From the NCBI GenBank assembly GCA_951406725.2, contig OX597827.1, forward strand, positions 14,322,001-14,386,000: a stretch of DNA of 64,000 bases, in the 5' to 3' direction. The notes beneath the pieces are model-generated. The model saw nothing but the letters and a program-made list of their open reading frames with translations. It was not told the DNA's origin and did not search any database. Both the position numbers and the translations under genes were made by a program. The DNA is from Octopus vulgaris. Its lineage: Eukaryota. Position 1 is the first letter of the stretch; each line of letters begins with the position of its first letter. Below, piece after piece: positions 58,048 to 58,340 of this stretch.

Positions 58048-58097
<50 letters not shown>

Positions 58098-58125
58098 TTT
58101 ATTTAAAAGCAGCAGAAAAGTCAAC

Positions 58126-58171
58126 AAAACTGTTACTCTGAGTTTCACATTCCCGTTCGTCAGACAGTTTT
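58126..58171 (-). ncRNA. Minimal type I hammerhead ribozyme, canonical core
   Basis: Minus strand AAAACTGT-CTGACGA-ACG-GGAA-TGT-GAAAC-TCAGA-GTA-ACAGTTTT: 8-bp stem I, 3-bp stem II with GNRA loop, GUA triplet. Confidence 0.8.
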
Positions 58172-58178
58172 TGCTCGC

Positions 58179-58224
58179 AAAACTGTCCGACGAATGGGAA
58201 CATGAAACTCAGAGTAACAGTTTT
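58179..58224 (+). ncRNA. Minimal type I hammerhead ribozyme, U4-to-C variant
   Basis: AAAACTGT-CCGACGA-ATG-GGAA-CAT-GAAAC-TCAGA-GTA-ACAGTTTT. Confidence 0.7.
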
Positions 58225-58340
58225 GTTGAATTTTCTGCTGCTTTATATAAAGCATATTACTCTACCACTGGTATTTGAGTACTCTTTTTTCCACCTTGTT
58301 TCACATTTATGTGTTTACTCCGGTATATATATATATATAT

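What the first reader, a model, noticed from the sequence alone, without database searches (positions are those of the whole stretch)
58096..58255. One hairpin encodes a hammerhead ribozyme on each strand
Seen: minus strand AAAACTGT-CTGACGA-ACG-GGAA-TGT-GAAAC-TCAGA-GTA-ACAGTTTT (fully canonical core) and plus strand AAAACTGT-CCGACGA-ATG-GGAA-CAT-GAAAC-TCAGA-GTA-ACAGTTTT. The arms differ in stem II yet both remain paired (ACG/TGT and ATG/CAT). That fits selection on structure, but CpG decay of an ancestral ACG/CGT would explain much of it. Inference: whichever strand is transcribed, the ribozyme comes after its own antisense copy, so a rod-like fold competes with the catalytic fold. This resembles the opposite-polarity ribozyme arrangement of viroid-like RNAs, and the hairpin could also be an ADAR or Dicer substrate.
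Basis: partly seen in the sequence, partly recalled or inferred. Interest (0 to 1): 0.78.

Follow-up and report, generated by a model that had tools for sequence, protein, structure and literature searches.

The report
Fold-back stub of a Penelope retroelement
The hairpin is real but ordinary: it is a 227-base stub of a Penelope-like jumping gene, two copies of its ribozyme-bearing end joined head to head, one of at least 1,595 such twins in this genome, and both ribozymes are predicted to be silenced by the hairpin.

Summary
Both hammerhead motifs and the ~75-bp hairpin are there, beyond chance. They belong to a 227-bp insertion (58097-58323) in (TA)n. It is the terminal repeat (pLTR) plus 71-nt tail of a Hydra-clade Penelope-like element, preceded by an inverted tail-less copy. 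I walked from it to intact parents with a 727-codon RT + GIY-YIG frame between two such repeats. At least 1,595 twins exist. The 'canonical' arm is a CpG decay product: this subfamily reads CCGACGA, and CTGACGA (331) is nearly matched by the crippling opposite-strand decay CCAACGA (276). The motif is a dimer-type hammerhead. Inside the hairpin its fold costs 59-66 kcal/mol. Precedent is in print (Penelope-13_HM; opposite-strand min-HHRs), and this scan noted the pattern before on other DNA. Side results: older subfamilies spread with a U4C core and the youngest regained CUGAUGA; 27 of 29 pairs have one long and one short arm; 5' ends stop at a wall upstream of the ribozyme, none at its cut site.

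The parts
58050..58096 (.). (TA)n target microsatellite, left flank
   Evidence: TA-rich flanks at nearly all copies printed
58097..58175 (-). inverted, tail-less copy of the pLTR ('short arm'), ending at the first end point ...AATAAAG|TA
   Evidence: blast to intact element L177, 90%; short-arm end shared across copies
58127..58172 (-). type I hammerhead motif, core CTGACGA (58163-58157), predicted cut after 58134; the T at core position 4 is inferred to be a post-insertion CpG transition (+ strand 58162)
58173..58178 (.). head-to-head junction GCTCGC; inferred decay of the GCTAGC palindrome, the commonest symmetric junction
58176..58252 (+). direct pLTR copy ('long arm', first part)
   Evidence: 93% to the pLTR of intact elements
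58179..58224 (+). type I hammerhead motif, core CCGACGA (U4C, 58187-58193), palindromic stem III CTC-A-GAG (58208-58214), predicted cut after 58216
   Evidence: same frame as Hydra-2_aMil in File S2 of PMC8557442
58253..58323 (+). 71-nt 'tail', present on one arm only, ending ...ACTCCGG|TA; in intact elements it runs on into the ORF
58324..58472 (.). (TA)n/(GATA)n microsatellite, right flank

Best explanation
The hairpin is a 227-bp, 5'-truncated insertion of a Hydra-clade Penelope-like retroelement, two copies of its hammerhead-bearing terminal repeat joined head to head in a TA microsatellite, likely made as a by-product of integration and predicted to be catalytically silent. Shown: the same repeat flanks intact RT + GIY-YIG frames; junctions vary; one arm carries the tail and the other does not; the arms differ by CpG transitions. 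Inferred (about 0.65): the element's protein nicks both strands of (TA)n. Each strand primes cDNA on an uncleaved element RNA, one at the short end point and one at the tail end point. Both run towards the RNA's 5' end, about 17 nt upstream of the core, and the two cDNA ends join through the CTAG palindrome or T/A-run microhomology. The ribozyme's natural setting would be the parent transcript, where two same-sense repeats could pair through the palindromic stem III as a dimer.
For: Parent found by walking upstream. L139 reads inverted repeat+tail | truncated RT frame | 3'UTR | repeat. L177 has a repeat at 3083-3229 directly before a 727-codon frame and a tail-less repeat at 6438-6517. 95 scored matches, most with open frames; 26 copies differ by 0.36% on average over 1,200 nt. 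Hydra-clade marks RWK, DKT, CxCx5C, no Cys between GVVY and YTG, CxxC and CxH are all present (against PMC8557442 passages). Atlas neighbours at 0.96-0.99 carry GIY-YIG, RVT_1 or HTH_animal in part of their members. 1,595 exact twins. Of 66 distinct events picked only by the core: 29 adjacent pairs, 37 without an adjacent partner; 27 of 29 pairs long+short, 2 mid+short, none alike. In six pairs (L043, L051, L059, L194, L207, L214) the short arm holds 5' sequence that the long arm lacks, while the long arm holds the tail, so neither arm can be a copy of the other. 5' ends of 30 young arms picked downstream of the cut site: 20 at -2..+45, 0 at -162..-3, 10 further upstream, none at +47. This matches PMC11167929 (parts 1-2 read): both strands cut and extended, two internal RT starts, unprocessed RNA the main template. 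CpG test: 3,151 CCGACGA, 331 CTGACGA, 276 CCAACGA.
Against: Pfam and PDB give no real match to the protein, so RT and GIY-YIG rest on motifs, the Atlas and a by-eye match to the published Hydra-1_Obim sequence. Rfam finds no hammerhead. Junctions cluster: two forms make up 7 and 8 of 50, so limited copying of ready-made hairpins is not excluded. CTGACGA slightly exceeds CCAACGA (p=0.028). One insertion (L231/L232) has both arms running past the short end point. The tail (71 nt) is longer than the 30-40 nt in print. No target-site duplication can be read in (TA)n. The RNA 5' end and all activity statements are inferred from DNA ends and folding only.
Confidence: 0.9

Rival explanations
1. The fold-back unit is itself a non-autonomous mobile element (a retrozyme-like or MITE-like unit) copied as a whole hairpin.
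For: At least 1,595 twins; recurrent junctions (7 and 8 of 50); TA flanks; 35 of 40 best hits span essentially the whole unit (biased by the query).
Against: About 30 junction forms in 50. The tail can sit on either side of the same asymmetric junction (L002 versus L003). Both arms carry the core of whichever subfamily made them (47 of 50 alike; loop II and position 11.1 alike in 9 of 12 readable pairs). A continuum runs from solo stubs to kb-long inverted pairs. The ends are asymmetric, unlike a MITE.
Confidence: 0.05
2. Same retroelement origin, but the inverted arm arises by fold-back self-priming of one cDNA (or of an antisense template, as proposed in PMC3846280), not by two priming events.
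For: Palindrome CTAG at the commonest symmetric junction; PMC3846280 discussion (section 11) argues for self-priming from junction palindromes.
Against: Pairs in which each arm holds sequence the other lacks (six cases); asymmetric junctions and junctions with filler bases; strict long+short pairing fits two RT start sites.
Confidence: 0.25
3. The locus is a selected two-polarity ribozyme switch, viroid-like or a host-used ADAR/Dicer substrate.
For: Both motifs are readable; stem II can still pair on both arms; any transcript through the locus would be a long duplex.
Against: All arm differences are CpG transitions. Single-sided, pair-weakening versions are commoner than ATG/CAT among 206 motifs. 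The opposite-strand decay that breaks G5 is nearly as common as the one that restores U4 (276 versus 331). The hammerhead fold is 59-66 kcal/mol above the rod. There is no same-sense partner for dimer formation and no circular or replicon context. No host exon was evident among the ORFs listed for 45,000-64,000 (read by eye, no gene finder).
Confidence: 0.04

Closest known systems
Hydra clade of C-terminal EN+ Penelope-like elements (Craig et al. 2021, PMC8557442; passages and supplement part 2 seen)
   Same: RWK, DKT, CxCx5C, no CCHH, CxxC/CxH; (TA)n target; hammerhead near the 3' end. Hydra-2_aMil has the same ctgt/acag stem I, actc-N-gagt stem III and A at the cut site. Penelope-13_HM is listed with a hammerhead on each strand and a 5'-truncated inverted copy at its 5' end.
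   Different: A different family from Hydra-1_Obim (other hammerhead, clearly different protein by eye). Stem II is only 2-3 bp (3-7 in File S2). Older subfamilies carry a CCGA core, whereas every Hydra hammerhead listed there has ctga. The tail is about 71 nt.
Inverted pLTR plus 'tail' insertion units (Arkhipova et al. 2013, PMC3846280; passages and section 11 seen) and internal RT initiation in PAc (Frangieh et al. 2024, PMC11167929; parts 1-2 of 4 seen)
   Same: Head-to-head inverted repeat, palindrome at the junction, tail on one end only, two end points, AT-rich target, uncleaved template.
   Different: Here the unit is reduced to the two repeat ends with no ORF. In the parent the ORF starts downstream of the tail rather than inside the hammerhead.
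Minimal/dimeric type I hammerheads of metazoan PLEs (Cervera and De la Pena 2014, PMC4209133; parts 1-2 of 4 seen)
   Same: Palindromic helix III/loop 3, dimer requirement, mostly solo truncated copies; the paper notes dual min-HHRs 100-700 bp apart on opposite strands.
   Different: A.U (or a mismatch) instead of G10.1-C11.1; U4C core; the two motifs are only about 23 nt apart.
Viroid-like RNAs with a hammerhead in each polarity (Avsunviroidae; from established knowledge, no paper read on them)
   Same: One hammerhead per strand and a rod-like competing fold.
   Different: There the two ribozymes are separately evolved and used in rolling-circle replication of a circular RNA. Here they are two copies of one sequence in chromosomal DNA, with a protein-coding parent.
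Non-LTR retrozymes (bioRxiv 10.64898/2026.07.22.740005; part 1 of 5 seen)
   Same: Short, non-coding, PLE-derived, type I hammerhead.
   Different: Retrozymes are head-to-tail tandem arrays; this unit is head-to-head.

Membership tests
Penelope-like element (EN+) | pLTR flanking a single RT + GIY-YIG ORF in partial tandem | tested here: met
   L177, L178, L180, L181, L183, L185, L186 show repeat-ORF-repeat; the window copy is 93% identical to that repeat. Domain identity rests on motifs and the Atlas; Pfam and PDB are blank.
Penelope-like element (EN+) | 5' truncation, inverted 5' copy, tail at one end | tested here: met
Hydra clade | RWK, DKT, CxCx5C linker, CCHH absent, CxxC and CxH | tested here: met
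   positions 53, 129, 578, 596-616, 683, 711 of the 727-codon frame
Hydra clade | (TA)n insertion preference | tested here: met
Hydra clade | placement inside the clade in an RT tree | not tested
   reference proteins were seen only in a paper supplement and were not available as data
Type I hammerhead ribozyme | core C3UGAnGA9 ... GAAA ... UH | tested here: inconclusive
   met on the minus arm (by inferred decay) and in the youngest subfamily; U4C on the plus arm and in older subfamilies; no Rfam hit
Type I hammerhead ribozyme | three stems around the core | tested here: inconclusive
   stem I forms in the isolated plus arm (p 0.9-1.0), weakly in the minus arm (0.2-0.4); stem II 2-3 bp; stem III does not form as a monomer (p<=0.01) but pairs between two copies (8 of 9 pairs, -7.4 kcal/mol); CTC-N-GAG in 173 of 206 motifs with a free middle base
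Type I hammerhead ribozyme | self-cleavage | not testable with these tools
   no biochemical assay; no 5' ends at the cut site among 30 genomic arms
Viroid-like RNA | circular RNA replicon with independent plus and minus ribozymes, no coding parent | tested here: not met
   chromosomal stub of a protein-coding retroelement; both motifs are copies of one sequence
Non-LTR retrozyme | head-to-tail tandem units each with a hammerhead | tested here: not met
   head-to-head pair only
MITE | symmetric terminal inverted repeats and a fixed internal sequence | tested here: not met
   71-nt tail on one side; variable junctions

The most novel reading that the evidence does not exclude
This lineage keeps its hammerhead dialled down on purpose. 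Successive master elements held a mutable CpG-rich U4C core through thousands of insertions, and the youngest, still-active subfamily regained the canonical CUGAUGA only after it lost the 10.1-11.1 pair. Cleavage would thus stay weak enough to leave an uncut template for two-strand priming. As a side effect the element is seeding the genome with well over a thousand near-perfect 75-bp hairpins that could feed RNA editing or small-RNA silencing of the element itself.
Probability: 0.15. Interest if true: 0.6.

Novelty: new member of a known kind. Interest (0 to 1): 0.27.

Why it matters
The locus itself is one dead stub among thousands. The family behind it is useful. It has many near-identical intact copies (0.36% apart), so it is a good candidate for an in vitro test of how Penelope-like elements make inverted ends, which PMC8557442 lists as an open task. 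The genomic ends already favour two priming events on an uncut RNA. The subfamily series (CCGACGA, CCGAUGA, CUGAUGA) is a natural allelic series for asking whether PLE hammerheads need to cleave at all.

Tried and rejected
Rfam scans gave no hammerhead. Pfam and PDB gave nothing significant for the protein. A family search with a recalled accession was not in the library. Extending past the tail end by pattern returned TA-flanked stubs, and a 3.8-kb-spaced pair (L103) was a local duplication with no element ORF; walking upstream worked instead. Expression: no RNA holder listed (14 holders are guessed RNA). The four runs laid on the parent are contigs, so they show neither strand, ends nor cleavage. 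One (X5) has loose ends that resemble a cDNA template-switch oligo (recalled), a lead only. A pile-up of 5' ends at the ribozyme cut site was sought and not found (0 of 30); apparent ends at +45..47 are ambiguous because stem I resembles the inverted arm. My notebook entry 4 calls U4C ancestral in the second hairpin family; one search corrects that (78 of 100 listed are canonical). Paper searches found no description of this particular family or of a U4C core in a PLE. Repbase and Dfam could not be searched, the supplement of PMC13282606 was not opened, and bioRxiv supplements are closed, so the family may well be catalogued.

Full report
1. Observation. The region folds at -125.8 kcal/mol, z -20.3. 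A hammerhead descriptor hits only these two sites in the window and never in 200 shuffles. Rfam does not recognise them, and the isolated 46-mers are not unusually stable.

2. It is a repeat. The 235-bp unit including the tail has 3,173 candidates in the 2.8-Gb genome; the 40 scored are 90-100% identical and sit in (TA)n. The exact twin pattern occurs 1,595 times (the pattern read backwards, once per strand). The genome looks like an octopus from its repeat landscape (recalled, not determined).

3. Parent element. Copies picked by the core or by the tail include solo stubs, pairs with shifted junctions and longer copies that share upstream sequence. Walking upstream reached L139: inverted repeat with tail, truncated RT frame, 3'UTR, direct repeat without tail. 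Its protein retrieved 95 scored matches, most with open frames, many of 727 codons. In L177 the repeat lies directly before the frame and again about 1 kb after it. 26 copies differ by 0.36% on average over 1,200 nt. The protein has every Hydra-clade mark listed in PMC8557442. Pfam and PDB are blank; Atlas neighbours carry GIY-YIG, RVT_1 or HTH_animal in part of their members. It resembles, but is not, the published Hydra-1_Obim (by eye).

4. The junction is made afresh. Among 50 listed twins there are about 30 junction sequences with spacers of 6-33 nt; two forms recur 7 and 8 times; 47 of 50 have the same core on both arms (by eye). Of 66 distinct events picked only by the core, 29 are adjacent head-to-head pairs and 37 have no adjacent partner. 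27 of the 29 have one arm ending at AATAAAG and the other at the tail end, 2 are mid+short, none alike. Four pairs 3-4 kb apart follow the same rule. One exception appears (L231/L232). In six pairs each arm holds sequence the other lacks, which argues for two separately templated cDNAs rather than fold-back copying. In 30 young arms (29 insertions) picked downstream of the cut site, 5' ends lie at -2..+45 (20), none at -162..-3, and 10 further upstream, counting from the A of CCATTCT; none lies at the cut site, +47. I infer that the RNA starts near this initiator-like motif (consensus recalled) and is copied uncut. PMC11167929 reports both-strand extension, two internal RT starts and an unprocessed template for a lizard PLE. 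PMC3846280 instead proposes self-priming.

5. The ribozyme. It is a dimer-type type I hammerhead. Stem III is CTC-N-GAG in 173 of 206 motifs, with all four middle bases seen (loci picked by several queries, not at random). It does not close as a monomer, but two copies pair through it. The frame matches Hydra-2_aMil in File S2 of PMC8557442. PMC4209133 found such motifs inactive as monomers and weak as dimers. In the window unit the hammerhead stems have probability 0.00, and the constrained fold is 58.8 (plus) and 65.9 (minus) kcal/mol above the rod. A transcript of either strand holds only one sense copy. So both are predicted silent.

6. Canonical versus variant core. The window copy belongs to the GGAA/CGT subfamily, whose core is CCGACGA (38 of 50 such motifs). 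Exact counts in one context: CCGACGA 3,151; CTGACGA 331; CCAACGA 276; CTGATGA 4,257. The near symmetry of 331 and 276 is what CpG decay gives; the small excess (p=0.028) may include back-changes from the young subfamily. ATG/CAT on the plus arm is two CpG transitions; one-sided versions are commoner. In a tree of 87 tail-bearing arms with the core masked (139 columns, many forks open, bootstrap not settled), CCGACGA copies form the older grade. CCGATGA appears later, and a clade of 19 CTGATGA copies, which includes the intact elements, is nested within (98/91); 2 more CTGATGA copies fall outside it (midpoint root, polarity inferred from branch lengths). All published Hydra hammerheads in File S2 have ctga, so U4C looks derived and then reversed. 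PMC3088659 says U4C considerably lowers activity in vitro yet allows viroid infectivity. CpG pressure alone could explain the reversal; selection is not shown.

7. Comparison. The pattern is in print: inverted 5'-truncated copy plus one-sided tail (PMC3846280, PMC8557442), hammerheads on both strands in Penelope-13_HM, and opposite-strand min-HHRs (PMC4209133). Recently active Penelope families are reported for Octopus vulgaris (PMC13282606, passages). It works like a viroid only in geometry and fails membership.

8. Verdict. Real, ordinary: a new family member of a known kind. Interest 0.27, mostly for the active parent family and the core switch, not for this locus.

Noticed in passing
window 39645-39870: A second, older fold-back family with the same build (inverted arm, about 67-nt tail, TA flanks, stem III CTCAGAG, GTA). 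746 candidates at about 80% identity. Core among 100 listed: 78 CTGAAGA, 7 CCGAAGA, 8 CCAAAGA, 7 CTAAAGA (by eye), so a U4C sub-lineage likely existed there too. Its parent was not sought.
   Followed up: partly
window 57085-57112: Decayed 3' half of a similar hammerhead (GAAACTCTGAGTA), no partner.
   Followed up: no
L177:3248-5428 and the matches: Very young Hydra-clade subfamily with many intact 727-codon frames (mean 0.36% apart) and a canonical core; 4,257 exact core matches.
   Followed up: yes
L182 (4350-5302), L179, L183: Full-length head-to-head pairs and a 3,431-bp head-to-tail tandem of the parent element.
   Followed up: partly
L177:3074-3135: Stem I can extend to about 15 bp, reaching exactly to the inferred RNA start.
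   Followed up: partly
window 4440-4522 (-): tRNA gene with a long variable arm and anticodon TAA, Leu-like.
   Followed up: no
window 59461-59590 and 59870-59999: 130-bp direct repeat (97%) around a short RT-like fragment (59552-59860), likely a long target-site duplication.
   Followed up: no
window 59026-59233 and 60275-60482: 208-bp inverted pair of a SINE-like repeat, 89% complementary, 1 kb apart; another potential dsRNA near the hairpin.
   Followed up: no
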